A stretch of 64,000 bases of DNA from a virus: IMG/VR virus record IMGVR_UViG_3300045988_081205, one strand, 5' to 3'. A model generated the notes under the pieces. It saw nothing but the letters and a program-made list of their open reading frames with translations, was not told where the DNA came from and ran no database searches. The position numbers and the translations under genes are program-made. Positions within the stretch are counted from its first letter, which is position 1; each line of letters starts with the position of its first letter. This document shows positions 4,186 through 52,758 of this stretch, piece after piece.

Positions 4186-4210
4186 CAAATCAATCAACAT
4201 ATGATATACT
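4182..4210 (+). promoter_or_regulatory. sigma-A-type promoter
   Basis: TTGACA 4182-4187, 17-nt spacer, TGaTATACT ending at 4210. Confidence 0.7.
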
Positions 4211-4240
4211 TGGATTATCAAAAAGATGGAGGTAATAAAT

Positions 4241-4387
4241 ATGAAATGGGAAGCGTGGTATTATGACTATATCAATGGCAACAAGAAAACGTACATTTAC
4301 GTTGAAGCCGATTCTTTTGATGAGGCGATTGCTAAAGCTCGTCGTATTGACCTTAGAGTAAACGCGGCAAGAGTGGTAAGTGAATGA
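4241..4387 (+). CDS. hypothetical small protein (48 aa)
   Basis: ATG 9 nt after GGAGGT. The stop overlaps the next ATG (ATGA coupling at 4384). This makes the antisense track ORF 4190-4396 spurious. Confidence 0.5.
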   Translation: MKWEAWYYDYINGNKKTYIYVEADSFDEAIAKARRIDLRVNAARVVSE

Positions 4388-4866
4388 GCAAGCCACCTAC
4401 AGTTAAATGCCGCCAATGCGGTAAATCAACGCCAAAACAAGATGCAATCGAATATAAGCCTAAGTTCTATTTCTGCTGTGAACAATGTAGGCAGGATTAT
4501 ATCAATGCTCATATCGTTAAGCCCAAAGCAGAATCAAAAGATGATAGGCGCAAATTGCTGGATTATATACGTCAAGTTGCCCCTGATGCCAATATGCGGC
4601 TTGTAGGTATCCAGCTTGCTCAGTTGATGAAAGATAATCCTGATATGACATATGGCGGCATTGCTTATACTATCAGATATATCCATAAAGAGCTTGGAAA
4701 GGATATATCTCAATCGCCGCTTGGACTGGTCAAGTATAAGTATGATGAATGTAAAAAATATTATGCTTGGCTAAATCAGGTAAGACAGAATATACAGCAA
4801 TGGCAAGCTGAAGATGGAGTTGAGACGATTGTGAAAAGAAATGATGAGGAGGATGTGTTTGGATGA
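4384..4866 (+). CDS. hypothetical Zn-ribbon protein
   Basis: N-terminal CxxC...CCxxC. 160 aa. Confidence 0.6.
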   Translation: MSKPPTVKCRQCGKSTPKQDAIEYKPKFYFCCEQCRQDYINAHIVKPKAESKDDRRKLLDYIRQVAPDANMRLVGIQLAQLMKDNPDMTYGGIAYTIRYIHKELGKDISQSPLGLVKYKYDECKKYYAWLNQVRQNIQQWQAEDGVETIVKRNDEEDVFG

Positions 4867-5123
4867 AACATAAAATGATTGGATGTTCTGAAGAATGCCT
4901 AGAATTTGCCTGTTGCGATTTCTGCATCTATGTTCACCATGATTTTTTCTTTGATAAAGACGGTGATATTGTCCGTGGCGGACCAGTTGGATGTGGATTG
5001 CATGACGATGAGCGTCATCAAGATATCGCTGAAAGCTGTGGTCATTGTCCTGATTTCCATTGTTTTAGAGCACATGAAGATAATATGGTTGTAAAGGAGA
5101 TTGATGATGATGACGTGGTATAG
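4863..5123 (+). CDS. hypothetical Cys/His-rich protein
   Basis: 86-aa ORF, translationally coupled. TAG stop. Confidence 0.5.
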   Translation: MKHKMIGCSEECLEFACCDFCIYVHHDFFFDKDGDIVRGGPVGCGLHDDERHQDIAESCGHCPDFHCFRAHEDNMVVKEIDDDDVV

Positions 5124-5331
5124 TATTGGCAAAAATAGTAAACCAGATGATTATGAATGGGTGCTTGTTTCATTTCTTACAGAAGACAGTAGACAAAGAT
5201 GCTCTGGCACTTGTGTTGTAGCTGCACTTTGGGAAGATGATGAGGGATGTGCTATATGGTATGACGGTAATCGATTCTATAACATTCATACAACAGACCG
5301 TTGGGCATATATTGAATTGCCGGAGGAATAA
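5101..5331 (+). CDS. DUF551-like small protein
   Basis: The W...P...EWVLV...W...RWAYIELP pattern is shared with 8846-9079. Confidence 0.45.
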   Translation: MMMMTWYSIGKNSKPDDYEWVLVSFLTEDSRQRCSGTCVVAALWEDDEGCAIWYDGNRFYNIHTTDRWAYIELPEE

Positions 5332-5334
5332 TCA

Positions 5335-6807
5335 TTGCTCTATGACCAAAATTCTGTTAGGCTGCTATTAGGTTGTTTGCTAATTAAGCCATCTCTTGCT
5401 ATTTCTGATAAGTACCCTCTAAGCCGTGATGATTTTACGGTCGATTTTCATCTCAGATTATGGCAAGGGTGTGTTGCCCTAGCTAAGCGTGGAGCTGAGT
5501 CCATATCGTCACTAGACATTTATATGCTATGTAAGAACAATAAGCAGGTAGAGGATATATTCAAGTTAAATCAGTTAGACGATTTCATTGATACAGTCAA
5601 GCAGCTTGCTAATGTAGGTAATTTTGAGGTCTATTACAACAACACGCGCCGAGCCACATTACTTCGTTCTTACAAAAACGCTGGCTATAATGTAGACAAA
5701 TTTGAGCAAGACGATAAAGCGACCATAGAGGATATAGTACAATACTTTGACGCACAGCAAATAGCTATAAAAAAGCAATTTTATAAAGACAAGGATATAG
5801 ACGAGCTAAAAGCCGGTGATGGATTTGAAGCGGTTAAAGAGGGATTTAAGGCAGAGCCGCTATTCGGTGCAACGACTTTTAGTGAATATCTAAACACAGC
5901 AGCTAGAGGCTGGATTCCGGGGCAGCTATCTATCTATTCAGTCGGTTCAGGCGTAGGAAAGTCAACTATTGGCTTGGCTAATCTTGTGCAAGTATGTTGT
6001 CCTAGAATCTATGATATGGATAAGGGGCAATATGTAGACAATCCATGTTATCAACATAAAGCTGGTCTATATCTTCAATTTGAAATGGCTGGTGATACTG
6101 AAATTACGCCTAAAATTGTGGCTACAATTAGCGGCGTACCATGCTTTAGCATCTTGAATGGGCGGTATGAAGAAGGTGAAGAAGAGCGTGTGGATGAGGC
6201 TATTAAAATTCTGCATGAATCTAAGTTATATATCGTCACCATGCCCAATTATACTGTTGATTTGATTGAATCCTATGTAAAGGATTATGTAGTCAATAAG
6301 CAAGTGGGCTTCCTATGTTATGATTATATCGTTGAATCCTCATCTGTATCGAGCGACTTAGCTAAAAAGAATGGCGTATCTACTCGTTCAGATCAGGTGC
6401 TATCTGGCATAGCAAGTAAGCTCAAGGATTTAGCTGTTGAATATAATATCGCCGTCTTGACATTTACTCAGGTCAATGCTAATGCTATGACGCAAGAAAT
6501 TATGGATAGCGGCGTTGCGGCTGGTTCAAGAGCAATTCAGAACAAGGCTGATGTAGCTGGCGTAATCATGCCATTACGCCGTAAGGAGCAAGAGATAGCT
6601 GATATGATGATGGAGAAATATTCTGATAAGATAAAGCCAAATCGCGTATTACACCTCTATAAGATGCGCTTCTCACAGGTTGAGCAAGGTATTAAGATAT
6701 ATTTTAATCTTGATTTGAATACAGGTCGAACAAAGGATTGTTTTGTAACCACAAAATTCGATAATCCTTATCAATTAACTAAGACAAGGTTGGTGTATGC
6801 TAAATGA
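5335..6807 (+). CDS. replicative DNA helicase, DnaB-like
   Basis: N-terminal LLGCLLIKPSL-type DnaB N-domain. Walker A GSGVGKST. ~490 aa. TTG start. Confidence 0.8.
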   Translation: MLYDQNSVRLLLGCLLIKPSLAISDKYPLSRDDFTVDFHLRLWQGCVALAKRGAESISSLDIYMLCKNNKQVEDIFKLNQLDDFIDTVKQLANVGNFEVYYNNTRRATLLRSYKNAGYNVDKFEQDDKATIEDIVQYFDAQQIAIKKQFYKDKDIDELKAGDGFEAVKEGFKAEPLFGATTFSEYLNTAARGWIPGQLSIYSVGSGVGKSTIGLANLVQVCCPRIYDMDKGQYVDNPCYQHKAGLYLQFEMAGDTEITPKIVATISGVPCFSILNGRYEEGEEERVDEAIKILHESKLYIVTMPNYTVDLIESYVKDYVVNKQVGFLCYDYIVESSSVSSDLAKKNGVSTRSDQVLSGIASKLKDLAVEYNIAVLTFTQVNANAMTQEIMDSGVAAGSRAIQNKADVAGVIMPLRRKEQEIADMMMEKYSDKIKPNRVLHLYKMRFSQVEQGIKIYFNLDLNTGRTKDCFVTTKFDNPYQLTKTRLVYAK

Positions 6808-6977
6808 CATGGGTGATTTATGGAATAGCATTGTGTGTATCGTTTTTAGCCATTCTTTTTGGAGAATACGAATACAAGAGAACCAATAAATATAGCGATT
6901 TGCTCATATGCGGCATTGGTTGTGGTTTATTGGCGTTTACGTTGATGTTCGGCGCGACATTGATTTTTGTCTTATGA
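6804..6977 (+). CDS. small two-TM membrane protein (57 aa)
   Basis: Not in the track. ATGA-coupled to the helicase stop and TTATGA-coupled to the primase ATG. Two hydrophobic segments. Confidence 0.4.
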   Translation: MTWVIYGIALCVSFLAILFGEYEYKRTNKYSDLLICGIGCGLLAFTLMFGATLIFVL

Positions 6978-8023
6978 TCGACATTCAATCTCTTAAATCT
7001 CAGCTAACCGATGACCGCATTATAGAGCTAATGGATGCTCTAGGTGCTCCATTGATGAAGGCTGATAGCAACAATTTGATATTTCCAAGCATATGCCATC
7101 AGAGCGACCCGTTAGCTCATTCCGCTAAATTATGGCTATACCTCGATTCTATGCAATTCCACTGTTGGAGCTGCGGCTTTTCAGGTGATGCTATATCTCT
7201 AGTTCAACACGTCAAGCATCTTGACTTTAATCAAGCTGTCTCATATATCTGCTCAGTCCTACATCTACAAGTAGGGCAAATAGAGCAAAATGAGCAGCTT
7301 GATAATTGGGCTGAATTGCGCCGATTTTTACCTAATGCTGAGCCAGAGCCAGATAAGCTCTTGACATATGACAAGTCTATATTATCTCTATTTGACCATT
7401 TATATCCGCAAGAATGGCTAGATTATGGCATTTCAGTGGATATACTTGATAAATTTGGCATAGGCTGGTATGCGCGTCAGGCGTGTATTTCCATACCTGT
7501 TGTGTTTAATGGTCAACTAGTAGGCGTGAGAGGGCGATACACAAGAGAGCAGAATGTGGCTAAGGGTAAGTATAGACCAATATGTACGCTGGATGGGACA
7601 GTTCTAAAGTTGGCAACATCACAAGTCATGTATGGCTATGACCAAAATAAAGCCGCTATTGAAAAGTCACGCCAAGTAGTGCTATTTGAGAGTGAAAAGT
7701 CAGTACTAAAAGCGCCAAGTTACAATTTGCATAATGCTCTGGCCGTCTTTGGCTCTAATATAAGTAGACAACACATACAGCTATTACTAGAGCTAGGTGT
7801 GAATGATGTGGTGCTATGCATGGATAGCGACTATAAGCAAGTAGGTGATGATGAATTTAAGTTCTTTGTTGTCAAGATGAAGAAATTAGCAGCTAAGCTA
7901 AAGCCATTCTTTAACTGTTCGATAGTATATAACAATCAAGGCTATGATATGTATAAATGCAATATGATGGATATGCCATATGAGCAAGCTATGAAATTAT
8001 GGGAAAGTAGGGTGAGAGTATGA
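6974..8023 (+). CDS. DNA primase, DnaG-like (CHC2 zinc finger + TOPRIM)
   Basis: CHQ...HCWSCGFSGDAISLV zinc finger. TOPRIM-like VVLFESEKS and CMDSD. The ATG at 6974 is preferred over the track start 6908. Confidence 0.8.
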   Translation: MIDIQSLKSQLTDDRIIELMDALGAPLMKADSNNLIFPSICHQSDPLAHSAKLWLYLDSMQFHCWSCGFSGDAISLVQHVKHLDFNQAVSYICSVLHLQVGQIEQNEQLDNWAELRRFLPNAEPEPDKLLTYDKSILSLFDHLYPQEWLDYGISVDILDKFGIGWYARQACISIPVVFNGQLVGVRGRYTREQNVAKGKYRPICTLDGTVLKLATSQVMYGYDQNKAAIEKSRQVVLFESEKSVLKAPSYNLHNALAVFGSNISRQHIQLLLELGVNDVVLCMDSDYKQVGDDEFKFFVVKMKKLAAKLKPFFNCSIVYNNQGYDMYKCNMMDMPYEQAMKLWESRVRV

Positions 8024-8343
8024 GAACACCATGCAAGTATGCGCATGAAAACCGGTATGATAGATATGTAGACGGTAAAATTCGTGAAGTAATAATCAAT
8101 GAATGCTGGGCTACCAAAGAACCATTTGAATGTGACAGTAAATGTAAGGAGACGTGCGGTGTATATGAATCAGCCAATAAAGGCAAGGCGTTAAAATGGC
8201 TCAATGCAGGATACTTTGATGAATGGTATGGTTGTACTTGTAAATGCGCGAGATGTGGGGCTGAAGTATGTGGATGTGATGCCCGTAATTATTGCCCTAA
8301 TTGTGGTTACGAATACAAGGCATGGGATGGCAAAATTCTATAA
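8020..8343 (+). CDS. hypothetical Cys-rich protein
   Basis: 107-aa ORF with several CxxC pairs, coupled to the primase stop. Confidence 0.55.
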   Translation: MRTPCKYAHENRYDRYVDGKIREVIINECWATKEPFECDSKCKETCGVYESANKGKALKWLNAGYFDEWYGCTCKCARCGAEVCGCDARNYCPNCGYEYKAWDGKIL

Positions 8344-8352
8344 ATTTAATAC

Positions 8353-8381
8353 TTGACAATCAACCTCCTTTATGATATAAT
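8353..8381 (+). promoter_or_regulatory. sigma-A-type promoter
   Basis: TTGACA 8353-8358, 17-nt spacer, TGaTATAAT ending at 8381. Confidence 0.75.
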
Positions 8382-8408
8382 CACTATATCAACAATAAGG
8401 AGGTTGAT
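8359..8408 (+). promoter_or_regulatory. 12-bp inverted repeat pairing the promoter spacer with the Shine-Dalgarno of 8415-8849
   Basis: ATCAACCTCCTT (8359-8370) is the exact reverse complement of AAGGAGGTTGAT (8397-8408). Confidence 0.6.
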
Positions 8409-8414
8409 TTTATT

Positions 8415-8849
8415 ATGAGTAAATTCAAAGTAGGAGATAAGGTGGCTTATGTAACCAAGCCAGATGAAGAAATTGGCGAGGTGAATTGTGTCGTAGAGGA
8501 CAGATATGGTTGTCATATCTTTGTTGCGTTCAACAAAAAGAAAGTATATGAAATGCAACTAGCCGGTTATAACTATGATGAAGATAAGTTAGTTAAGATT
8601 GACGAGTATACCTTATCAGATGATGAAATCTATACCATGCTCAAGCCGAAGCTCGAAAGTATGTGTATGAAAACAGAATATCACAAATTATTGCCAACTG
8701 TATTTGAATTAGAATTTGAATCACAAAAGGATTATGACCCATATGTTCCAGAAAGTGATGTAATTAAAGCTATTGCTCTAGCATATCGTTCTGGTTATCT
8801 TAGAGCTAAGAAAGGAAGACCATTTAAGATTGGAGGAGAGAAAGAATGA
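8415..8849 (+). CDS. hypothetical protein
   Basis: 144-aa ORF with a strong SD. Confidence 0.65.
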   Translation: MSKFKVGDKVAYVTKPDEEIGEVNCVVEDRYGCHIFVAFNKKKVYEMQLAGYNYDEDKLVKIDEYTLSDDEIYTMLKPKLESMCMKTEYHKLLPTVFELEFESQKDYDPYVPESDVIKAIALAYRSGYLRAKKGRPFKIGGEKE

Positions 8850-9079
8850 TTGAATGGCATAAAGTAACAGATGAATTGCCACCATATGATACGCCAGTTC
8901 TTGTGTCTGGTTCAGACACAGGCACATATCTAGAGGAATATGTTCATGTAATGAAAATATTTATTAAGAATCATACATATCTGTGGCAATGCATGTGGGA
9001 CGCTGATGTGTATGAAGTATATGAAGATGATTATTGGGCATATATTAACTTACCAAAAAAGGACGGTGATTCAGATTAA
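8846..9079 (+). CDS. DUF551-like small protein
   Basis: EWHKV...LPPYDTPVLV...YWAYINLP pattern. Confidence 0.45.
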   Translation: MIEWHKVTDELPPYDTPVLVSGSDTGTYLEEYVHVMKIFIKNHTYLWQCMWDADVYEVYEDDYWAYINLPKKDGDSD

Positions 9080-32555: not shown

Positions 32556-35500
32556 CTAACTACGTCTTGTCACATATTGTTGCGCCAATTCTCTAAGTCC
32601 ACTTACGAACGATTGAGCATCGCGCACATTGGGTAATGTAACATTGCTAATGTTGAGCGTCTGCGCCAAACTCTGTGCTTTTTGAGCCAAAGACGACAAC
32701 ATATCGCTAGGTGTCATAGACCCCCAACGCCATAGATTGTCCGTAATGCCGCTTGGTAGGATACCATCGCCCTGATTCAGCACTCTCAGCTCTGGACCAT
32801 TTTCACCAACTAAAGATAAGCCGCTGTCGGCATTACGTGTGCCACGAGCATAACCTTGAGCGCCTATCTTCTTCATTTCGGATGCATAGTTTAATAAGTA
32901 TCCTTTAGTAATATCATATTGAGCTTTATCATATAAGTCTTGAACTTCGTCTTTCGTTAATGATTCACTAAATAATTTGTCATATAATCGTTGATCGGCA
33001 AGTCCCTCAAAATCAAGCGCATCTGCTACATTGTATTCAGTCGCTAAAAGATCAGCTGGTATTTTTTTGTAGCCACCATGCATAGCGGCTGATGTATTGC
33101 TTTGGTCAATATAACCGAGCTCATCTTGCTTAAATTCTCCCGGTTTAGTGCTCCAAGCATCGGTCTGATGCTCCCAAGCCTCTTTGTATAAATCACGGTT
33201 GCTAGCCCATGTGTCTTGTTTGCTAACATCTGTTCCGAAATATTTTGAAGCGGCTTCATCGCCATATGCCTCTCTATATTCCTTAATCATTTGTTGCTTA
33301 GTATCTCTGAGCTGAGTCCAATATGCAACTTCAGCCTGAGACTGAGCGTTCTTTATCTTTTCGCCAAAGTCGGTTTGAACACCATAAGACCTTACATTTT
33401 CTTCACGAATCTGTTTCTTTAGCTCGGCTTCACGTTGCCGCCTTTCTTCTCTGGCTGCCTGTGCTTCGTTATATGCTATAAGAATTTGTTTGTAAGCATC
33501 ACCGGGCTTCATTGCCTCACCGAAAGTATCATATAGACCCTCTTCAGACATCCCCTCATACACAGTTCCAGATATCTGTCCTTGGGCATATTGTAACAGA
33601 TGCTTACGAAGAGCGTTTGGGTAATTTAGAACATCACCGCCATTGCTGAAATACTTTTTAAAGAACGCTTTCGATTCATCGCCTAGCATAGACATTAAGT
33701 CTTTAGTTTGGCTCTGTTCTATACCACGATACGTCTCTTGATAGTCTTTCTGCGCACTAGATATAGCATCGGAATCTTGCATATATTGGAAGCGCCCTTC
33801 ACTATATACTAGCATACGGCGCTGTTTAGCTTTTTCTAATGCCTCTAGCTTTTCTTCAAGGGCTATCTTATCCTCTAGTAGCTGATTCTGACGGTCATAT
33901 TCTTCTGCTGCTTCTTCAGCTATTCCTTTTTCAGCGGAGGCGTTCTTTACAGCTTTCGCAACTGCGGCATTATATTGTTCTTCGATGCTGGCACCCATCT
34001 GACGAATCATCGCCCAAGCTTCTTCAATGGCCGTAATAGCGCTATTCGCGTTTCCGCTTGCAAATGCCTGATGAATAGAGCCTGTTATAGATGATACAGT
34101 AGACGATACTTTGTCTTTTAGCCCATCTAGCAAACCACTAATAGAACCGGACAAATCGCCGCAATTCTTCTCAATATAAGTGATAAGCTCGTCAACACTA
34201 TATGTGCCCTCAGATACAATCTCAGAAAATAGCGTTTTTAGTACTTCAACAAATTGAGCAAATTCAGCCTCAGCTTGTTTATACTGTTCACTTGTTTCAT
34301 CAAATCCTTGTTGCTTGAGCTGAGATAGGTAATCCTGATAGGATTGATATATAGTGGCTACTTCTGATAGAGTTGACTGTAAATCAGATTTACTAATATC
34401 TGGGTCAATTAGTTTGAGACGTGTTGACTCGTCTGTTAGATATTCGCGCAGTTCTTCAATGGTATTGATGGTTTGAGCTTTGACCTCTTCTTGGTCTTTT
34501 TTGGTTGAGGATGAACCTCCTCCGCCACCACCACCTGTTGAGACAAACGGCTTGATGGATTCGAGCTGTTTCTTATACTCTTCCATCTTCTTTTTGTAAT
34601 TGCTTTGCCCAGCCGATTGTATTTGAGACGTAACCCATTTATTAAATCCCGCTATATCAGCATCAGCGCTTTTACCAAAAGTACGAAAATAAGCTTGTCG
34701 CAAGCCCTCCATATCGCTAGTTGTACCAGCGGCTCTACCACCAACAAGGTCAGACGCAGTACTAACGCCAGCCATATCCATCATAGACGCTAATTGGCTA
34801 GTGGTAATCATTGCAGCATTGCCAACCTCTTGAATAGCTAGTATCAACGCGCTAAAATCAGCTTGAGCTTGTGCCTGTTGTGCCTGAATAAATGACTGAG
34901 CCATACTAGCCATAGAACCAGATGTAGATAATGCCTGTTTAGCCGCTTCTGTTAATTGTCCATTAGCATCAAATAGAGAATTGACCAGTACACCACTAGC
35001 ATCATCCGCATTTTCATTTGCACCACGATATTGGTCAAGCGCGGCTATGTAGGTATCTAGCTTAGATGCTGATTCTTCTTCTGCTACACCAAGCTCTTGT
35101 ACGTCATTAGCTGCTCCGCTTAAATCAGTATTTTGTACTACACCATTAAGCGTTTCCCAGTTATTGATAAAATCAACTTGCCACTGGTCAAGATTTTCGC
35201 CATTATCTGCAAGAATTTTTAGAGCATTATAATAATCCTCTGTTGATGTTACAAGCTCACCTACTTGCCGAGTAGCAGAATCACTAGACGTAATAACATC
35301 TTGAGTATATTTTGACCAATTAGCTAATGACTGCCCTTGAGATTGCGCCCAATCAATCGTCTTTTGCTTTGTTTCGGTGATTGTAACACCCAATCCATTA
35401 AGAGCGTTTTTAGCAATTTCAGCAGCCTCGCTCCAATTTCCAAGAGAGGATGCCTCTAAATAGGCATCATATGATGTAGAATCTACATACTCATGTAGAG

Positions 35501-36956
35501 CTTCAAACGCTGCATTGGTTGCATCTTCAACAGACTCGAACGTTCCCTTTAGCGCATTTGCTTGTTCATCTGTTATAGTTAGAGTTTGTTGCCAAGTTGT
35601 AAGTGTTTTGTTACCAAATTCATCTGTGCTTAATCCGCTTACGGTTGCGCCAGTTACTTGTTTACCACCAGTTGTAACTTTACGGGCTGCCTCAACTGTG
35701 TCTGTCTGACGTAATTCAATCAGCTTTTCATAAGCTTCAATCTGCTTCTCTAGCTGCTCACGTTCTGCTTGTAGTTCTGCTTCGTTACCATCATATGGTG
35801 TATTATTAAGCTCATCTAGCTTTTTCTTAGTTTCTTCATACCCTGTCTTGGTATTTTCTAGCTCTTGGTTAGCTTCGTCCATAGAGGCAACAAGATTCTC
35901 AAACTTATTGTTTTCTACGGCTTGATTTACAGCTTTAATAACTTCAACTAAAGCTGTAATAGCTGCAACTGTGCCACCAACTATGAGCGCGATTTTGCCA
36001 CTGGCAAGCATACCTAGGAACGAGTCGCCACCAACTCCTAGATTTTTAAGTTGTAAACCAACCTCAGCTATCTTGCCTACAGTTTGCCCAACGATACCAA
36101 CTAGACCAGTAACACCAGTGCTTAATACACCAATTCTAGTAACAGCTGCGCCGACATCATTGTTAGCAAAATTAAGCATAGCTGTACCAGCATTGATGAA
36201 ACCGCCAACTAGGTCTTTTGATAATACGCGATTTGCAAAATCTTCAAATTCTGCTTTAAGAGCCTGTTGCTTTGCTTCTAGGCTCTCCATATATTTACTG
36301 TTTTCCTGTGCCGCAGAGCCAGCAGACTCTAAGGCTGCTTTGGTTGCATCAGCCGCATGACCAAAGTTCTGCATCACACTGGCAAGGACTTTATATTGAT
36401 TCTGTCCCGCGATAGTATCACCAAGAGCCGTTCTTTGTGCATCTGTCATTGAATCCCATTTAGGCTTCAATTCAGACAGCACATCAAATGTACTCTTTAG
36501 ACTACCGTCTACATTTTCTACTGTAATGCCATATTCTGCAAGCGCATCTTGATTCTTTACAATACGAGCCGCAATAGTAGATAATCCACGCGCAACCTGA
36601 CTACTGCGCCCTTGCATGATTTCTGTACCGCTAGTTACGAGACCTATGACTTGTTCAAATGAATTGCCATAAGTAGCCATACCACTAGCGGCAATTTCCA
36701 TTGCTTGTGATATGTCATTGGTGCCTACACTAAAATTGTTTGCCACTTCATTGTATGCGTCTATAACATGAGTGGCAAAATTAGCATCTTTACCAAATGC
36801 ACGAATCTGAGAAACAATAGATGCGGCTGCATCTTCTGCTGAAACAGCCGTATCAGCTACGTTCTGATAAGAAGCAGCAACTTTTGCAAGCATAGCGGCA
36901 TCCGAATCGTTGAATCCGCTCTTGCGGAACATAGATGCTGCTGATACCATCTCTGA
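32556..36956 (-). CDS. tail tape-measure protein, exon 2
   Basis: About 1466 codons, Ala/Gln-rich and helical, with TP901-type core (FRKSGFNDSDAAMLAKVAASYQNVAD...). Joins in frame to exon 1 after intron removal. Confidence 0.85.
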   Translation of the reverse strand, partial: SEMVSAASMFRKSGFNDSDAAMLAKVAASYQNVADTAVSAEDAAASIVSQIRAFGKDANFATHVIDAYNEVANNFSVGTNDISQAMEIAASGMATYGNSFEQVIGLVTSGTEIMQGRSSQVARGLSTIAARIVKNQDALAEYGITVENVDGSLKSTFDVLSELKPKWDSMTDAQRTALGDTIAGQNQYKVLASVMQNFGHAADATKAALESAGSAAQENSKYMESLEAKQQALKAEFEDFANRVLSKDLVGGFINAGTAMLNFANNDVGAAVTRIGVLSTGVTGLVGIVGQTVGKIAEVGLQLKNLGVGGDSFLGMLASGKIALIVGGTVAAITALVEVIKAVNQAVENNKFENLVASMDEANQELENTKTGYEETKKKLDELNNTPYDGNEAELQAEREQLEKQIEAYEKLIELRQTDTVEAARKVTTGGKQVTGATVSGLSTDEFGNKTLTTWQQTLTITDEQANALKGTFESVEDATNAAFEALHEYVDSTSYDAYLEASSLGNWSEAAEIAKNALNGLGVTITETKQKTIDWAQSQGQSLANWSKYTQDVITSSDSATRQVGELVTSTEDYYNALKILADNGENLDQWQVDFINNWETLNGVVQNTDLSGAANDVQELGVAEEESASKLDTYIAALDQYRGANENADDASGVLVNSLFDANGQLTEAAKQALSTSGSMASMAQSFIQAQQAQAQADFSALILAIQEVGNAAMITTSQLASMMDMAGVSTASDLVGGRAAGTTSDMEGLRQAYFRTFGKSADADIAGFNKWVTSQIQSAGQSNYKKKMEEYKKQLESIKPFVSTGGGGGGGSSSTKKDQEEVKAQTINTIEELREYLTDESTRLKLIDPDISKSDLQSTLSEVATIYQSYQDYLSQLKQQGFDETSEQYKQAEAEFAQFVEVLKTLFSEIVSEGTYSVDELITYIEKNCGDLSGSISGLLDGLKDKVSSTVSSITGSIHQAFASGNANSAITAIEEAWAMIRQMGASIEEQYNAAVAKAVKNASAEKGIAEEAAEEYDRQNQLLEDKIALEEKLEALEKAKQRRMLVYSEGRFQYMQDSDAISSAQKDYQETYRGIEQSQTKDLMSMLGDESKAFFKKYFSNGGDVLNYPNALRKHLLQYAQGQISGTVYEGMSEEGLYDTFGEAMKPGDAYKQILIAYNEAQAAREERRQREAELKKQIREENVRSYGVQTDFGEKIKNAQSQAEVAYWTQLRDTKQQMIKEYREAYGDEAASKYFGTDVSKQDTWASNRDLYKEAWEHQTDAWSTKPGEFKQDELGYIDQSNTSAAMHGGYKKIPADLLATEYNVADALDFEGLADQRLYDKLFSESLTKDEVQDLYDKAQYDITKGYLLNYASEMKKIGAQGYARGTRNADSGLSLVGENGPELRVLNQGDGILPSGITDNLWRWGSMTPSDMLSSLAQKAQSLAQTLNISNVTLPNVRDAQSFVSGLRELAQQYVTRRS

Positions 36957-36976
36957 CGGTTATAAATTATCTAATA

Positions 36977-37180
36977 TTATAGCTTTCCCCAACGCCAATC
37001 ATCATCTAATCCCCATTCATTGATTCGCCGCTCTTCCTCTTTTGCTCGGCTATCAATATGATAAGGTTGTTGATTATTTTGTTGATTGTCATGTTTTCCA
37101 AACAATCCAACTATCACACAGTATAATGTCCAGATACCAATAGCTGGAAAAATCAACATAATAAGCATTAAAGCAAACAT
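36977..37180 (-). CDS. intron-encoded small membrane protein (67 aa), not a homing endonuclease
   Basis: ATG at 37180 after AAAGGAGG. N-terminal TM segment (MFALMLIMLIFPAIGIWTLYCVIVGLF) and a charged Gln/Asp/Trp-rich tail. Bracketed by a 14-bp stem (36964-36977 / 37217-37230). Confidence 0.55.
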   Translation of the reverse strand: MFALMLIMLIFPAIGIWTLYCVIVGLFGKHDNQQNNQQPYHIDSRAKEEERRINEWGLDDDWRWGKL

Positions 37181-37206
37181 GATAGATACCTCCTTTAAGT
37201 ATCTAT

Positions 37207-37235
37207 AACATAGCACATATTAGATAATTTGTCAA
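37207..37235 (-). promoter_or_regulatory. promoter-like element inside the intron, upstream of the cargo ORF
   Basis: On the - strand: TTGACA (37235-37230), 17-nt spacer, TATGTT (37212-37207). Confidence 0.35.
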
Positions 37236-37574
37236 GGGGTTTTCAAGCCCTTCCCGAATAATTCTTTACCCTATATATTTGGAGGGTCGCCCTGTATATT
37301 CTGTTGACACATCCCTCATCAGGACTTCGCGCCCAATCTGCCCTTTTATGATACATTATTTATCATTGATTCTTTAGGTTTTTCAACCATGGAATCATCC
37401 TTATCGTCTTTCTGCTTTCGCACTAATTCATTGTTAATAATGAATAATTTTCACACTCAGGCATATCTCATCCTCATGTTGTAGTGATAAGGCTCTTGAG
37501 GCTTTCAAGGGTTTAGGGGCTGTTCTCTATGCACATTTACCATCTGTACATACCGGCTCAGACCGATTTGGTTT

Positions 37575-37973
37575 ACCGGTTCTTGCTACTTCTCTGCCAG
37601 ATTGACTTAGCTTTGTAACATATTTATCAAGTGCTGTACCCTGTAAATCACTGACCTTCTTAAAGTCGGTCATAGCATCATCAAGATTCTTGACTTGCTC
37701 ATACATACTGCTTAAAGCACCTGTTGCTAAATCAAGAACTTGTCTAAACTGCTGATAAGTAACAGCAATATTTTCTGTTTCTGCGTTAAGATTTTTCGTG
37801 GATTGAGTTACACCATCTAGCTCTTTTTTAGTTCGCTCTGCACCATCTGCTGTAACACCAATCTTTAACTTAGTATCTTTATTATTTTGGATTTCTCTAA
37901 GTTGTTTCTTTATACTCTCTTCCTGCAGCTGAACATCAACCAGAATCGAGTAGTTAGAGTTACTTCCAGCCAT
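37575..37973 (-). CDS. tail tape-measure protein, exon 1
   Basis: 133 codons ending ...SGREVARTG at the proposed 5' splice site. The track ORF 37527-37973 reads 16 codons into the intron before a TAG. Confidence 0.75.
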
Positions 37974-37976
37974 TCA

Positions 37977-38477
37977 TCACACTCCCTTTTTTATTTGTGA
38001 GTAGGCTATGAGGATTCCTTCTGCGCAATCATCCTCATTTTTTTTGCTACTTGGGGCAACCCATGCCAATTCGAGGCCAAATTCTTCATTCGCCATCTCT
38101 ATGGCTTTTTTCTTCAGAACATCTCTTTGTAATCCAGCTCTAGTACCATCAAAGAGATTAAGGTCGCCACGCCATTTACTTGGCATCAAGAAGCATGGCT
38201 TTATCTTGAAGCCAGCACATAATGCTAATATCACGCCTTGTACTGCGCCCAATTTTTCTATGGTAGACGCTCCTTTTTTTAATGGCACTTCCTCAGCATA
38301 GAGAATTGTCGGCTTATACTGTCTAAATATGCTTGATAATTCCATAGTAAGCCCCATTACTCTGTCATGCCAATCATCGCCCTTTGGCTTAATTGTGCCA
38401 TATGCAATGAGCCGCCCATTATCAAATATAGACCATCCAGTAGATGACGTACTAGCATCTAATCCTGCTATAATCAT
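37977..38477 (-). CDS. RuvC-like Holliday-junction resolvase
   Basis: MIIAGLDASTSSTGWSIF (first catalytic Asp), YAEEV, and C-terminal acidic residues. 166 aa. Confidence 0.6.
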   Translation of the reverse strand: MIIAGLDASTSSTGWSIFDNGRLIAYGTIKPKGDDWHDRVMGLTMELSSIFRQYKPTILYAEEVPLKKGASTIEKLGAVQGVILALCAGFKIKPCFLMPSKWRGDLNLFDGTRAGLQRDVLKKKAIEMANEEFGLELAWVAPSSKKNEDDCAEGILIAYSQIKKGV

Positions 38478-49093: not shown

Positions 49094-50671
49094 TTATTCT
49101 AATGAATCTCGGCTTGCTTCGCCACTTTCGGTAAGTGATGTTTCTGACTGACGGGGTCTACCACCCTCGTTATCTGAGCCGCCCTTGGTTGTATTGGTAT
49201 TTTTCAAGAGCTGTGTATATTTATCAATCCAACCGGTATATTTACTTTCAGCCATCATTGCTTCAAATACTTGTGGTTGATAGCCCGATACAGATGCCCA
49301 TGTCTGCATAGGTAGAACAATGCCAGAATCAGCCATTTTTTTCACTTTATCAAATCGAGCTTCACGCTCAAATGGGTAGTTAGACCCGTCGAAGATAAAT
49401 TTCCACTTGTATTTCTTTGTTAGCTGATTGACATAAAATTCTAGGAAATTGCTAAACTGTGGATATAGCGGCTTCATAGTCTGGTACATGTCATTAAGTC
49501 CAGCCTCAATCTCAGCGTTGGACTGTCTATCAGAGCTATAAATAACACGGCTCACACCAGAACCAACACCAGCAGATGTAGCAAGTTGAGTTGAATACAT
49601 ATCTGTATTCTTATCCTCAAACTGGTAGAACTTAATATTTTCAAGCGGCATTGCGGCAAGTTTTGACAATGAGCCAAGACCAGCCTTTGCCTTCTGCATA
49701 AATCCACCTAGCGTCTTTGGGTCAATAGCAAACTGATTCGCTTTAGTACCAGATTTAGCCGAATCAAATAGACGAATTTCACCAGCTAGAATAGCATAGG
49801 CTGACGCAATATCCTTGTTATACTGCAACTGAGCAATATCATCATTAGCAATGGCATTCTTCAGAAATGGAGCTAAAAATGGCGTATTATTAAATGTGCT
49901 AGGATTCCACTTAAATACCCATGCACCATCACTAGGTGATGTTTGCGTCCACATAGCATATGCTCCATTGCGTCTATTTAGTGGGTTTGTAGGGCGATAA
50001 TTTTTGAACGCTTCTTCCTCAGAGCCAAATACGCGCTGATAATATTTCTTAAATGCTGGGTCAAACCCATTGATGTCTACACCAGCTTGCAGGAAATAGC
50101 TCATGTCAAAATCAAACAACATGCCCTTTTCCCAATATCCAGTAAGTAGACATCTATCTTGTGGCAAAATCTGTAGGGCGAATTTCATTCCTTTGTTGCC
50201 CCACTTCGTCTTTCTGAACCAAGTGAAATATGTTTCATGCGTCACAATCTGTGCTATAACTTTACCAAATTCGGCCTTATAATCAAATTTGTTCAAAAAA
50301 TCATATACGCGCCGCTTATCCTCTTGGTATGCGCTTGATTCATAATCACTCTGAGTAAAAGCATTGATACAAACAGGCTGTAGATCAAATGATAGAGCGT
50401 TACAATATGCTTGTAGAGTTCTGGCAAATATCATGTCCCAGAATTTCATATATTCCATATAGCCCTGAATTTGCTCTGAATTTTCCTTATATTCAGCAAG
50501 AGCCTTGCGGATTTTATCAGAGCTTGGGGTTTCTGGATTGTTGTTCAAACTCTGCAATAGTTGATTACTCAACATTGGTGACCAAAAGCCAAACTGGTCA
50601 TAAGCATATAACGCCTGTGCAAACTCTGTTACAGCTTGAGCCTGTTCAAATGTTACTAGCGGTTCTGCCAA
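49094..50671 (-). CDS. portal protein
   Basis: 525 aa. First large ORF after the large terminase. Acidic C-terminus. TTG start after AAGGAGGG. Confidence 0.6.
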   Translation of the reverse strand: MAEPLVTFEQAQAVTEFAQALYAYDQFGFWSPMLSNQLLQSLNNNPETPSSDKIRKALAEYKENSEQIQGYMEYMKFWDMIFARTLQAYCNALSFDLQPVCINAFTQSDYESSAYQEDKRRVYDFLNKFDYKAEFGKVIAQIVTHETYFTWFRKTKWGNKGMKFALQILPQDRCLLTGYWEKGMLFDFDMSYFLQAGVDINGFDPAFKKYYQRVFGSEEEAFKNYRPTNPLNRRNGAYAMWTQTSPSDGAWVFKWNPSTFNNTPFLAPFLKNAIANDDIAQLQYNKDIASAYAILAGEIRLFDSAKSGTKANQFAIDPKTLGGFMQKAKAGLGSLSKLAAMPLENIKFYQFEDKNTDMYSTQLATSAGVGSGVSRVIYSSDRQSNAEIEAGLNDMYQTMKPLYPQFSNFLEFYVNQLTKKYKWKFIFDGSNYPFEREARFDKVKKMADSGIVLPMQTWASVSGYQPQVFEAMMAESKYTGWIDKYTQLLKNTNTTKGGSDNEGGRPRQSETSLTESGEASRDSLE

Positions 50672-50913
50672 ATTTCGCCCTCCTTTCTTTATTTTATTGT
50701 TTATATATTAGAGCAGTTAGATTATGGACTTCATTAACGTATGCCAAAGTTCATTGAGCTACTTGTCCTCCCTATCCGCTCGTTTTATATTTTTGAGTGT
50801 TTTTGTTTTCAGCTTTTTGATTAAACCTAAGTTGGAACTTGGATTCCACACAACCCTAATAGCACCTCCACGGCAACATACCAACATAGCAGCCGCTTCA
50901 TAGGTAAGTCATA

Positions 50914-52758
50914 TCACCAGACAAGTTGAATAGAATCTATATCAAACTCATCTTCTTGTAACTGTTGCTGCCATGCGTTCTCAATTAAATCAATAATGTA
51001 ATTACCATACATAATGGTTACAATTCTATCCTTTGTGCCTGTGCGCGGTTCTTCTAGTTTAATTTTATCCTGCTTAATAACCGTCTTTAGATTAACAGCC
51101 TCTATAACCATCATATCAGTTTGACCATATGGCTCAAGCTGATTAGCTAATTCTTCAGCGGTATATTGATAATATTCACCGCTATCCGTTAGTTCGTTCT
51201 GATAATCTTGCATAGAAATAAGGAATTTCATATTGTTGGTTTCAAGTTGTTTACGCAATGATAACCAACCGCTACTGTTTAATTCAGGTGTGCCAATAAT
51301 CGGTATCAAACATGGTACAGCATTTTTATCAACTGTGCGGTTATGATAATCGTCTATCTTAGCTTTAGATACAACCTGATATTTATCAGCCAATCCAAAT
51401 CCGCGCGAATCCCATCTTGCGCCCAAATCGGGTCGTGGTAATGGTTCTGTAAGGTGGTTTGCTATTACCTCACCACCACTACGCGAATCGAATAGACAAT
51501 AATCTGCATCATATACCCATTTAAGGTATCTAAATCTATCAGATGCACCGATTGTATCAGATGCGTCATGACCCTCTATATAATCAACATGACGCTCGAA
51601 TCTATTCTTTTTACTGTCCCAATGAGCCGACATAAGAGTAATAATTGTATTATCGTTCTTTGTACAACCAGTGGTGTTTGCAAATGCCAAGTCCATTGAC
51701 AGTATGCGTATCTCATCCTCTTTCTTTTCTGGGAAATCAGGTTGTTCGCCAGCAAAGAATTGTAATGCAGTAGGTGGACGGAAACAATGCTCAATAATTT
51801 GGTTCTCTTTGAATGACTTTAGATTAAAGAACGCATCATCGCCCTCTGAAATCATCTCGTTCAAATCTTCCATTCTGAAGTCCATTTCGCCGCCAGCCTT
51901 ATCATTCCAATAGTCAGCCCATGTCTTAAACCCATTATCAATAACCATAAATATATCACCAGCAAAAATATTACATCTTACTTTGGTGTCGGTAAATATA
52001 CGAGTAAATGTCTTTTTGAACAATAGCCAGAACCACTCAAACTTATATCTGGCAGATGTGATATAGATATGTTGACATTCCTCTTTCCAACGAGGATTAT
52101 TACCATATACAGGGTTACTAAGATATTTGGCTTGTCTTGGATGCGCCATCTTCTCAAAGACGGAATCGACCATACCTTTTTTGAGCAAACGGGCTTCTTC
52201 GTATGTAAGAATTGTTGCTCTTGGCCCACGAGAGCTATCTTGGCATGGTAATACACGCAAAGTAGAACCGTTAAGCTTATTCTCTATTCTATAACCATCT
52301 TCTGGTTTAGTGATAACCAAATATTCGTGCTCATACATATATAAGAGATATGGCGATAATTTTTTAATCAATTCATCCCTTATTTTATCTTCAACCATCT
52401 TGTTCGCCTGTGCAACAGTTGATGATGTAATTACCGCCTCTGTATATGGATAAAGATTCATCTTTACAATATTACCTAGACCAACGATAAAAGTTTTAGA
52501 TAAGCCACGACAACATATTGCGAAGAACACATCTGATATGCCCATCAGATATATCATTATCATCTGAAATGGGCGCAACTTGATACCAAGAACTAAATCA
52601 ACATATATATGCCAATTTCGGCGTAACTAAAATAAAGTCAGCCACTCTATAGCATTTTCCTCTTTCTGCGCATCTTTCATTGCATTTTCTTTTGCTTTTG
52701 TTGTAATTAGGTGGTTTCCAAGGAACTTGCGTCTCAAGCCCCCCATCTGACTTTTCAT
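50914..52758 (-). CDS. terL: terminase large subunit, interrupted by one in-frame TAG (52627-52629)
   Basis: The segment YVDLVLGIKLRPFQ...CCRGLSKT (Walker A-like) ...ILTYEEA (Walker B-like) ...SMDLAFANT (nuclease Asp) contains no start codon between the TAG and the TTG at 52578. An ATG at 52758 with SD GGTGGTGA lies 43 codons upstream in the same frame. Confidence 0.7.

What the first reader, a model, noticed from the sequence alone, without database searches (positions are those of the whole stretch)
36957..37574. Group I intron splitting the tail tape-measure gene, with P1, P10 and terminal G all readable
The tape-measure N-terminus (37575-37973) and body (32556-36956) are separated by 618 nt. 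On the - strand, exon 1 ends ...ACC GGU. Seventeen nt into the intervening sequence lies UCUGA-GCCGGU. GCCGGU pairs with the exon end ACCGGU, leaving the diagnostic U.G at the cleavage site (P1). The adjacent UCUGA pairs with UCAGA, the first five bases of exon 2 (P10). The base before exon 2 is G (omega-G). Ligation is in frame (…REVARTG|SEMVSAASMFRKSGF…) and yields a continuous TP901-type tape-measure sequence. Phage group I introns are best known in nucleotide-metabolism, polymerase and some structural genes. A tape-measure location is unusual, and it makes tail length and assembly dependent on RNA splicing.
Basis: partly seen in the sequence, partly recalled or inferred. Interest (0 to 1): 0.75.

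Follow-up and report, generated by a model that had tools for sequence, protein, structure and literature searches.

The report
Group I intron in tape-measure gene
The 618-base interruption of this phage's tail tape-measure gene is very probably a self-splicing group I intron, a known kind of element, but this one escapes the standard detection model and carries a promoter-driven small membrane-protein gene where a homing nuclease would normally sit.

Summary
On the minus strand, exon 1 (37973-37575) and exon 2 (36956-32556) are separated by 618 nt. Joining them gives one in-frame TP901-type tape-measure protein that aligns without a gap to uninterrupted homologues.

The insert has group I architecture, P1 to P10. 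Across 37 distinct copies from related viral contigs, 96.6% of cells pair and 36 of 84 pairs show changes on both sides. These include exon-guide compensations in P1, the P3/P7 pseudoknot and a P7 guanosine-site motif. The last base is G in all 57 complete copies with a mapped 3' end (59 loci, 2 mis-mapped).

Rfam RF00028 does not detect it. It does detect other introns in the same gene of relatives, and intermediate paralogues link the two.

No homing endonuclease is present. After P9 lie a conserved sigma-70-type promoter and a 67-aa membrane-protein gene under purifying selection. A long helix loops this cassette out and places the 3' splice site near the core.

Tape-measure group I introns were described in 2008, so the location is not unusual. 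The divergent core and the cargo are new. Splicing itself is inferred, not shown.

The parts
37575..37973 (-). Tape-measure exon 1 (133 codons). It ends ACCGGU, and its last 5 nt (37579-37575) form the 5' strand of P1.
   Evidence: Uninterrupted homologues align through this end without a gap. The P1 exon bases covary with the guide sequence.
36957..37574 (-). Group I intron, 618 nt.
37553..37562 (-). Internal guide sequence UCUGA-GCCGG. Intron nt 13-17 pair with the first 5 nt of exon 2 (P10). Intron nt 18-22 pair with the end of exon 1 (P1, with U.G at the splice site).
37236..37552 (-). Ribozyme body, intron numbering. P2 23-47. P3 55-58/283-286. P4 64-66/241-243. P5 73-76/232-235. Branched P5 extension 83-227 with two GAAA loops. 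P6 245-268. P7 272,274-278/315-320 with bulged nt 273. P8 288-307. P9 325-339.
   Evidence: Alignment A1. Pair counts: 96.6% paired, and 36 pairs changed on both sides against 22.3 +/- 2.0 in shuffles and 3-6 in slid controls. P4 and P5 are supported by paralogues.
37255..37303 (-). Catalytic centre: P7 5' strand C(A)GAAUA, J7/3, P3 3' strand GGGC, P8, J8/7 AAAGAAU, and P7 3' strand UAUUCG. The G274-C319 pair next to the bulge is the presumed guanosine-binding site.
   Evidence: pair 276-317 occurs as A-U 25, G-C 10 and C-G 2; pair 272-320 as U-A 29 and C-G 7; P3 pair 57-284 as C-G 29 and U-A 8. Copies L056 and L061 carry the canonical GACUA/UAGUC.
37207..37235 (-). Sigma-70-type promoter inside the intron: TTGACA, 17 nt, TG-n-TATGTT.
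   Evidence: 10 of 12 matches plus the TG extension. TTGACA occurs at the corresponding position, just after P9, in every copy examined.
36977..37180 (-). Intron-borne gene for a 67-aa protein, MFALML...INEWGLDDDWRWGKL. It has an N-terminal membrane helix and an acidic tail with a W/Y-G motif. The ribosome-binding site AAAGGAGG lies at 37196-37189.
   Evidence: 57 unnamed protein clusters of 50-72 aa. pN/pS is 0.08 among 7 alleles. No Pfam, NCBIfam, PHROG or PADLOC family matches.
37217..37230 (-). 5' strand of the long-range helix (P9.1-like), AAAUUAUCUAAUAU. It overlaps the last base of the promoter -35 hexamer and its spacer.
36964..36977 (-). 3' strand of the long-range helix, AUAUUAGAUAAUUU. 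It ends 7 nt before the 3' splice site, so the helix loops out the gene cassette.
   Evidence: perfect Watson-Crick runs of 8-16 bp (at least 10 bp in 32 of 35 distinct introns), against a shuffled mean of about 5.8. Thirteen different helix sequences occur.
36957..36957 (-). Terminal G of the intron (omega-G).
   Evidence: G in all 57 complete copies with a mapped 3' end.
32556..36956 (-). Tape-measure exon 2 (1466 codons plus stop). Its first 5 nt, UCAGA, form the 3' strand of P10.

Best explanation
The 618 nt at 37574..36957 (minus strand) are a group I intron in the tape-measure gene of a roughly 90-kb tailed phage. In the late pre-mRNA, the guide sequence pairs with the last bases of exon 1 to form P1, with a U.G wobble at the cleavage site. 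A free guanosine bound in P7 attacks that site. The long helix between the promoter region and the 3' tail, together with P10, then brings the terminal G into the same site, and the exons are ligated. The product is one 1599-codon reading frame (...ARTG|SEMV...). Without splicing, translation stops 15 codons into the intron. No ribosome-binding site precedes exon 2, so the full-length tape-measure protein depends on splicing. The intron has no homing endonuclease and is present in every close relative found, so it is probably inherited vertically. After P9 it carries a sigma-70-type promoter and a small membrane-protein gene. Host RNA polymerase can presumably express that gene independently of the late operon. 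Shown here: the anatomy, the covariation, the exon continuity and the coding status of the cargo. Inferred: catalysis, splicing in vivo, promoter activity and the function of the cargo.
For: (1) Exon continuity. The joined protein matches TIGR01760 and PF10145 across the junction. It aligns in a single piece, without a gap, to the uninterrupted tape-measure protein of Enterocloster phage PMBT24 and its relatives. (2) Conservation of the site. The insert sits at exactly aa 133/134 in 20 viral contigs whose exon 1 identity falls as low as 38-39%. The core motif occurs once in each of 48 contigs. It lies in the same exon context in the 47 where the upstream flank was recoverable. (3) Structure. 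84 pairs in 17 helices are 96.6% paired over 37 distinct sequences. 36 pairs change on both sides, against 22.3 +/- 2.0 in shuffles and 3-6 in slid controls. (4) Group I hallmarks. Compensatory exon-guide changes in P1. The P3/P7 pseudoknot with covarying pairs. A C-(bulge)-G-A-N-U-A / U-A-N-U-C-G P7 with three pair types at one position. J8/7 AAGAAU. Terminal G in 57 of 57 copies. P10 kept through a G.U change. (5) Links to canonical introns. RF00028 scores 60-101 bits on other insertions in the same gene of relatives. Paralogues L061 6048-6310 and L059 1399-1574 match this family (nhmmer E 1e-16 and 3e-17; model R1 43 and 35 bits). They carry the canonical GACUA/UAGUC, and L061b scores 36 bits for RF00028 at E 1e-7. 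A 101-bit RF00028 intron has a P5 extension weakly similar in sequence (nhmmer E 1.3e-3), read here as homologous. (6) A covarying helix of mostly 10-16 bp loops out the gene cassette and ends 5-17 nt (mostly 5-9) before the 3' splice site. This is the usual arrangement for genes carried in group I introns.
Against: Rfam RF00028 gives no hit for the window copy, even at E<=10 on 371 nt. The best score for a same-site copy is 11.6 bits. P3 and P4 are short, at 4 and 3 bp. P4 and P5 are invariant within the family, so an alternative pairing (CCCUU 64-68 with AAGGG 230-234) can be excluded only by reference to the paralogues. Two of the 37 distinct copies (L006, L018) have C instead of U at the 5' splice site. 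That gives C-G instead of the near-universal U.G. P10 shows no change on both sides. Single-sequence folding is only marginally better than shuffles (z -1.9). There are no RNA data, so splicing has not been observed.
Confidence: 0.9

Rival explanations
1. The tape-measure function is carried by two polypeptides encoded by naturally separate genes. The interval between them is an inserted promoter-plus-gene cassette (a 'moron') preceded by a structured RNA that does not splice.
For: The interval has its own promoter, ribosome-binding site and a gene under purifying selection. An ATG lies two codons into exon 2. Rfam does not call an intron here.
Against: Exon bases covary with the intron's guide sequence. 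That has no explanation unless the RNA pairs with the exon end. The terminal G, P10 and a complete P3-P9 core are conserved. No Shine-Dalgarno sequence precedes the exon 2 ATG (AUAACCGUCAGAGAUG). That Met is a conserved internal residue in uninterrupted homologues (DEMV and SEMV). The read-through tail of exon 1 varies with the P2 sequence and is not conserved as protein.
Confidence: 0.04
2. It is a decayed group I intron that no longer splices, so the tape-measure gene in this window is a pseudogene of a defective phage.
For: It has no homing endonuclease, short P3 and P4, no P7.1/P7.2, and no Rfam hit.
Against: Compensatory changes maintain the helices across 37 distinct copies. The exons stay intact and in frame while diverging to 38-39% identity. 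The element lies on many 80-100-kb viral contigs. No intron-less allele of close relatives was found in the viral or metagenome collections.
Confidence: 0.04
3. It is another kind of intervening element: a group II intron, an IStron, an intein or a translational bypass.
For: None beyond the fact that the gene is interrupted.
Against: The boundaries are AAACC...CCG, not GUGYG...AY. There is no group II Rfam hit, no reverse transcriptase and no transposase. Stop codons occur in all frames of the insert, which excludes an intein. 618-1066 nt is far beyond any known bypass.
Confidence: 0.01

Closest known systems
Group I introns in tape-measure genes of Bacillus cereus-group prophages (TMP-IVS1/2/3; Tourasse and Kolsto 2008, PMC2504315)
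   Same: Self-splicing-type introns that interrupt the tape-measure gene of siphovirus-type tails. Several sites occur per gene, some copies lack a complete homing endonuclease gene, and the introns are carried passively by the phage.
   Different: The phage lineage differs (about 90-kb gut phages related to Enterocloster phage PMBT24). So do the insertion site, the core sequence and the cargo. Sequence similarity to those introns was not tested here.
Canonical phage group I introns of the IA type (Rfam RF00028 matches), in the same gene of related contigs
   Same: The same gene and the same overall architecture. The J6/7-P7 and J8/7-P7' elements match (GUCAACAGAAUA and AAGAAUUAUUC here, against GUUCAACGACUA and AAGAUAUAGUC). 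The branched P5 extension is weakly similar in sequence (nhmmer E 1.3e-3) and is read here as homologous.
   Different: The window intron has no P7.1/P7.2, only 4 nt between P7 and P3', a 3-bp P4 and a 4-bp P3. Most copies have GAAUA/UAUUC instead of GACUA/UAGUC in P7. It falls below every RF00028 threshold.
T4 nrdD (sunY) intron and other group I introns with a gene downstream of the core (from general knowledge, not tested here)
   Same: The ribozyme core lies at the 5' end. The gene sits in a peripheral loop 3' of P9 and has its own promoter. The 3' splice site is brought back by long-range pairing and P10.
   Different: The gene here is not a homing endonuclease. It encodes a 67-aa membrane protein, and relatives carry one to three tandem paralogues of it.
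IStrons (a group I intron fused to an IS200/IS605 element, e.g. CdISt1 of Clostridioides difficile; from general knowledge)
   Same: A group I core at the 5' end, followed by non-endonuclease cargo before the 3' splice site.
   Different: There are no transposase genes, and the cargo is about 260 nt. There is no sign of multiple copies or transposition: one copy per contig, always at the same site.

Membership tests
Group I intron | The 5' splice site follows a U that pairs with a G of an internal guide sequence (P1), and the exon-guide pairing is maintained. | tested here: met
   In the window, U.G plus 4 Watson-Crick pairs. Among 37 distinct copies P1 is 100% paired, with two positions showing compensatory changes. 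Two copies have C-G instead of U.G.
Group I intron | The intron ends in G (omega-G). | tested here: met
   57 of 57 complete copies with a mapped 3' end finish in G.
Group I intron | P10: the guide segment 5' of the P1 strand pairs with the start of the 3' exon. | tested here: met
   UCUGA pairs with UCAGA over 5 bp, directly adjacent to P1. The UCGGA variants keep the pairing through G.U. There is no change on both sides, so support is by complementarity only.
Group I intron | Conserved core topology: P3-P4-P5-P6-P7-P3'-P8-P7'-P9 with the P3/P7 pseudoknot. | tested here: met
   One search shows covariation in P2, P3, the P5 extension, P6, P7, P8 and P9. P4 and P5 are invariant in the family but covary in the paralogues L061b (ACC/GGU) and L059b.
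Group I intron | Guanosine-binding site: a G-C pair in P7 next to a bulged nucleotide. | tested here: met
   C272-(A/C273 bulge)-G274 pairs with C319-G320. G274-C319 is invariant in 36 of 37 rows, and the one exception (L021) is the truncated row. Binding itself was not tested.
Group I intron | Score at or above the gathering threshold of Rfam RF00028 (50 bits). | tested here: not met
   No hit at E<=10 for the window. L056, a same-site copy, scores 11.6 bits. The paralogue L061b scores 36.2 bits. Other introns in the same gene of relatives score 60-101 bits.
Group I intron | Guanosine-dependent self-splicing, or a ligated-exon RNA in vivo. | not testable with these tools
   No RNA data are available. 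A search for the ligated junction in viral and metagenome contigs found only chance matches.
Mobile (homing) group I intron | Encodes a homing endonuclease, and the insertion site is polymorphic (alleles with and without the intron). | tested here: not met
   The only genes are membrane proteins of 60-110 aa with no nuclease family match. Every close relative carries the intron.
TP901-type tape-measure protein (TIGR01760 / PF10145) | A continuous match of the host gene product to the family profile across the junction. | tested here: met
   TIGR01760 scores 99.5 bits over aa 84-377. PF10145 scores 81.7 bits over profile positions 6-201.
Group II intron | GUGYG...AY boundaries, domain V, and usually a reverse-transcriptase gene. 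| tested here: not met
   The boundaries are AAACC...CCG. There is no group II Rfam hit and no reverse transcriptase.

The most novel reading that the evidence does not exclude
[quoted passage not shown] The cargo is a promoter-driven cassette of one to three small membrane proteins of a previously undescribed family, with an N-terminal membrane helix and a C-terminal (K)YDNDWG or WGLDDDWRWG tail. Host RNA polymerase would express it independently of the late tail operon. A plausible role is early superinfection exclusion or another envelope function related to the DNA injection that the tape-measure protein mediates. Under this reading the intron is kept by selection on its cargo rather than by homing.
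Probability: 0.2. Interest if true: 0.65.

Novelty: new variant of a known kind. Interest (0 to 1): 0.45.

Why it matters
Three practical points follow.

- **Annotation.** The standard model (RF00028) misses this intron lineage. Gene callers therefore report a 148-aa orphan protein, a 67-aa orphan protein and an N-terminally truncated tape-measure protein. The paper on the related phage PMBT24 noted a tape-measure gene split into two ORFs in phage CB457P1 and did not mention introns. Tail-length inferences drawn from gene length would be wrong for such genomes.
- **Intron load.** In this clade of gut phages the tape-measure gene is an intron hotspot. Relatives carry at least four to five introns, and one has a 23-nt mini-exon. 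That makes the clade a good system for studying intron gain, loss and decay.
- **Cargo.** The cargo is a conserved promoter plus a small membrane-protein gene under strong purifying selection, instead of a homing endonuclease. This suggests a way for an immobile intron to persist, and it identifies a new small-protein family whose function can be tested.

None of this changes the basic picture of phage group I introns.

Tried and rejected
- Rfam at gathering threshold on the whole window, and at E<=10 on 1101 nt and on 371 nt, gave no group I hit. The only Rfam hit in the window is a drum RNA elsewhere.
- blastn of the region against GenBank phages found no match.
- Single-sequence folding gave z -1.9 and a minimum-energy structure that misses the pseudoknot, so it is uninformative.
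- An all-against-all column covariation scan was too noisy because the sequences are related. It was replaced by explicit helix counts.
- The RNAalifold pairing CCCUU(64-68)/AAGGG(230-234) was considered for P4. It was rejected in favour of CCC/GGG plus GCCU/GGGC, because only the latter is kept in the paralogues L059b and L061b and matches the order seen in RF00028-positive relatives.
- A CUGAUGAG motif in the P6 loop looked hammerhead-like. No hammerhead fold or Rfam hit supports that.
- The duplex-energy control for the long-range helix was weak, because AT-rich sequence pairs easily. It was replaced by a count of perfect Watson-Crick runs.
- PHROGs, PADLOC, Pfam and NCBIfam gave nothing for the intron-borne proteins.
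- A genome-contig scan gave only one hit, in a MAG contig labelled Bacteroidales, so it offers no host or prophage clue.
- The ligated-junction pattern gave 0 hits in viral contigs and 9 in metagenome contigs. All 9 are chance matches outside tape-measure genes.
- The exon boundaries of the paralogue L061b could not be fixed in frame by eye and were left unresolved.

Full report
**Observation.**
On the minus strand, the ORF 37973-37527 reads into the interval and stops 15 codons after ...ACC GGU (37575). The next long ORF in the same direction covers 36950-32556. Removing 37574..36957 (618 nt) joins 399 nt to 4401 nt in frame, giving ...REVARTG|SEMVSAASMFRKSGF... with no internal stop. Exon 2 alone matches PF10145 only from profile position 21 (74.3 bits). 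The joined protein matches from position 6 (81.7 bits). It also matches TIGR01760 in one stretch, aa 84-377, which runs across the junction at aa 133/134. A tblastn search of GenBank phages aligns residues 1-383 of the joined protein in a single piece to the tape-measure gene of Enterocloster phage PMBT24 and related phages, at 34-36% identity. In the multiple alignment, VARTG|SEMV lies opposite VARTADEMV with no gap.

**Relatives.**
Twenty IMG/VR contigs of 31-97 kb carry an insertion at exactly aa 133/134, 616-800 nt long in the 19 that were measured. Their exon 1 identity to the window falls as low as 38-39%. A conserved 18-mer from the insert occurs once in each of 48 viral contigs. It lies in the same exon context in the 47 where the upstream flank could be recovered. 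Across 59 loci where the 3' end was mapped, the insert is 601-1066 nt long in the 57 with reliable ends (L056 and L061 were mis-mapped). In all 57 the insert ends in G, and exon 2 begins UCAGA or UCGGA. Many relatives carry further insertions at aa 204/205, 238, 251/252 and 317/319 of the same gene.

**Structure.**
I aligned 37 distinct copies, each comprising 14 nt of exon 1 plus intron nt 1-339 (A1), and tested an explicit structure.
- 84 pairs in 17 helices are 96.6% paired.
- 36 pairs show changes on both sides, against 22.3 +/- 2.0 in shuffles (0 of 500 shuffles reach the observed value) and 3-6 when the 3' partners are slid by 1-3 columns.

The helices follow group I order:
- **P1:** exon -4..0 with intron 18-22.
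- **P2:** 23-30 with 40-47.
- **P3:** 55-58 with 283-286.
- **P4:** 64-66 with 241-243.
- **P5:** 73-76 with 232-235.
- **P5 extension:** branched, 83-227, with two GAAA tetraloops.
- **P6:** 245-268.
- **P7:** 272 and 274-278 with 315-320, with nt 273 bulged.
- **P8:** 288-307.
- **P9:** 325-339.

The diagnostic points are these:
- **(a) P1 covaries between exon and intron.** ACCGGU with GCCGG becomes ACUGGU with GCCAG in L032 and L055. It becomes AGCGGU with GCCGC in L056 and L061.
- **(b) The P3/P7 pseudoknot covaries.** Pair C57-G284 becomes U-A in eight sequences. Pair 276-317 occurs as A-U (25), G-C (10) and C-G (2). Pair 272-320 occurs as U-A (29) and C-G (7).
- **(c) P7 has the canonical form.** It reads C-(bulge)-G-A-N-U-A paired with U-A-N-U-C-G. 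This matches the Tetrahymena C262-(A263)-G264 guanosine site (comparison from general knowledge). L056 and L061 carry exactly GACUA/UAGUC.
- **(d) The flanking junctions resemble the classical R and S elements.** GUCAACAGAAUA and AAGAAUUAUUC correspond to GUUCAACGACUA and AAGAUAUAGUC, as seen in the RF00028 consensus printed.

P4 and P5 never vary within the family. RNAalifold preferred CCCUU with AAGGG. I chose the canonical arrangement because the paralogues keep it: CCC/GGG becomes ACC/GGU in L061b, and GCC/GGC becomes UCC/GGA in L059b. RF00028-positive relatives also show the same order, P4-J4/5-P5-extension-P5'-J5/4-P4'-P6.

**Relation to canonical group I introns.**
RF00028 does not hit the window copy at any threshold tried. 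L056, a same-site copy, reaches 11.6 bits. RF00028 does score 60-101 bits on twelve other insertions in or next to the tape-measure genes of related contigs. Two further insertions bridge the gap: L061 6048-6310 and L059 1399-1574, both on the minus strand.
- An HMM of the window family matches them at E 1e-16 and 3e-17.
- A covariance model of the window family's P6-P9 core (R1) scores them at 43 and 35 bits.
- They have canonical P7 sequences.
- L061b scores 36 bits for RF00028 at E 1e-7 in a 501-nt search.

R1 also gives weak matches (18.6 and 15.7 bits, E 0.05 and 0.2). Their 3' ends lie one base short of the 3' ends of two RF00028 hits. A 101-bit RF00028 intron in L061 has a P5 extension that the A1 HMM matches weakly (E 1.3e-3), and I read it as homologous. 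My conclusion is that the window intron is a trimmed derivative of the IA-type phage introns around it. It has no P7.1/P7.2, only four nucleotides between P7 and P3', and short P3 and P4. The derivation is an inference.

**3' part and cargo.**
Every copy has the same elements directly after P9:
- TTGACA, a 17-nt spacer, then TG-n-TAxxxT. In the window this lies at 37235-37207 and matches 10 of 12 consensus positions plus the TG extension.
- A ribosome-binding site, AAGGAGG.
- One to three tandem small genes.

The window gene (37180-36977) encodes 67 aa: a hydrophobic N-terminal helix, a basic stretch, an acidic stretch, and the tail INEWGLDDDWRWGKL. The variants differ widely but keep the membrane helix or helices and a C-terminal (K)YDNDWG-like motif. 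Seven distinct alleles of the window type give pN/pS of 0.08. The large protein collection holds 57 clusters of 50-72 aa, all unnamed and without Pfam domains. The one context I examined is the same: RuvC-like gene, exon 1, small gene, exon 2. No Pfam, NCBIfam, PHROG or PADLOC family matches. There is no homing endonuclease.

The promoter region pairs with the 3' tail. In the window, AAAUUAUCUAAUAU (37230-37217) pairs with AUAUUAGAUAAUUU (36977-36964), and the 3' strand ends 7 nt before the terminal G. Perfect Watson-Crick runs of 8-16 bp occur at the equivalent place in all 35 distinct introns tested, and reach at least 10 bp in 32 of them. The shuffled mean is about 5.8, and thirteen different helix sequences occur. 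This P9.1-like helix loops out the cassette and brings the 3' splice site next to the core. That is the usual solution in gene-bearing group I introns.

**Mechanism.**
This is the standard two-step group I pathway, inferred rather than observed.
1. P1 forms with the U.G wobble at the splice site.
2. Guanosine bound at the G274-C319 pair attacks the 5' splice site.
3. The long-range helix and P10 (UCUGA with UCAGA) position the terminal G.
4. The exons are ligated.

Unspliced RNA would yield only a 148-aa fragment. Exon 2 has no ribosome-binding site upstream (AUAACCGUCAGAGAUG). Its early Met is a conserved internal residue in uninterrupted homologues.

The intron appears fixed in this clade. 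The degenerate ligated-junction pattern has no hit in IMG/VR. In JGI metagenome contigs it has nine hits, all chance matches outside tape-measure genes. Only distant homologues, at 26-36% identity, lack the intron. The closest cultured relative, PMBT24, is a virulent siphovirus (PMC11035940). The intron's 20-mer occurs in only one of 185,579 representative genomes, on a MAG contig. The element is therefore not a common prophage feature.

**Caveats.**
- No RNA evidence is available.
- RF00028 is negative.
- Two of the 37 distinct copies (L006, L018) have C at the 5' splice site. That gives a C-G pair where group I introns almost always have U.G. In the Tetrahymena ribozyme this substitution slows the first step (from general knowledge). 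These natural variants deserve testing.
- P10 support rests on complementarity only.

**Comparison with what is known.**
Group I introns in tape-measure genes were described in 2008, at three sites in B. cereus-group prophages including B. anthracis lambda01. Some of those lack a complete endonuclease gene (PMC2504315). The location is therefore not unusual.

Three things are new here:
- a core lineage that the standard Rfam model does not recognise;
- a cargo of promoter-driven small membrane-protein genes in place of an endonuclease;
- fixation of the intron in a clade whose tape-measure genes carry up to at least four or five introns.

I found no description of such a cargo in the literature searches I ran. 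Those searches are not exhaustive.

**Verdict.**
I rate it a new variant of a known kind, of moderate interest.

Noticed in passing
window 50792-50906 (-): The only Rfam gathering-threshold hit in the window is a drum RNA (RF02958, 54.2 bits). It lies in the gap between two long minus-strand ORFs (49094-50671 and 50914-52578) that have no Pfam match.
   Followed up: partly
window 37977-38477 (-): A RuvC-like endonuclease gene (PF02075, 26.5 bits) sits immediately upstream of the tape-measure gene. The same order is annotated in Enterocloster phage PMBT24 and is seen in L072.
   Followed up: partly
L061 (reverse-complement coordinates about 4044-9072); also L009, L010, L012-L017, L020, L021, L032, L056: Tape-measure genes of related contigs are riddled with introns. 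They carry RF00028-positive insertions near aa 104, 204/205, 238, 251/252 and 317/319, some 1.2-1.6 kb long and presumably holding endonuclease genes. L061 has at least four or five introns in this one gene.
   Followed up: partly
L061 reverse-complement 5482-5504: A mini-exon of about 23 nt (UCAGAAAUGAUUGAGGCAGCAAC) separates the aa 133/134 intron from the next, RF00028-positive, intron.
   Followed up: partly
L006 3257, L018 3285, L027: Three contigs have C instead of U as the last exon 1 base (ACCGGC). This gives a C-G pair at the 5' splice site. A nearly identical intron in L007 has U.
   Followed up: no
L004, L005, L035, L040/L049, L042, L051, L062 (introns of 799-1066 nt): Longer copies of the same intron hold two or three tandem paralogous small membrane-protein genes, each ending in a YDNDWG- or WRWGKL-type tail. 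The cassette therefore expands by duplication inside the intron.
   Followed up: partly
L059 1149-1300 (-), downstream of the paralogous intron core: The paralogous intron in L059 is followed after P9 by a ribosome-binding site and an ORF starting MSKKITIEETRKLFEQVGL.... This is probably a homing endonuclease in the position that the membrane-protein cassette occupies in the window intron.
   Followed up: no
GenBank OP172753.1 (Enterocloster phage CB457P1), hit H6: The PMBT24 paper reports that the CB457P1 tape-measure protein is split into two ORFs separated by an unrelated 157-aa ORF, and does not mention introns. This is probably another unrecognised intron with an endonuclease gene.
   Followed up: no
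L073 (SFEA01000039.1, 20.8-kb contig of a 'Bacteroidales bacterium' MAG): This is the only representative-genome contig that carries the intron's 5' 20-mer. It is most likely a phage contig binned into the MAG by mistake.
   Followed up: no
window 37566-37553 (-), intron nt 9-22: The P1 loop contains AUCGGU, which mimics the exon end ACCGGU and could compete for the guide sequence. It does not change in copies where the exon and guide covary, and it is absent in L056 and L061. It is therefore probably not a conserved pairing.
   Followed up: yes
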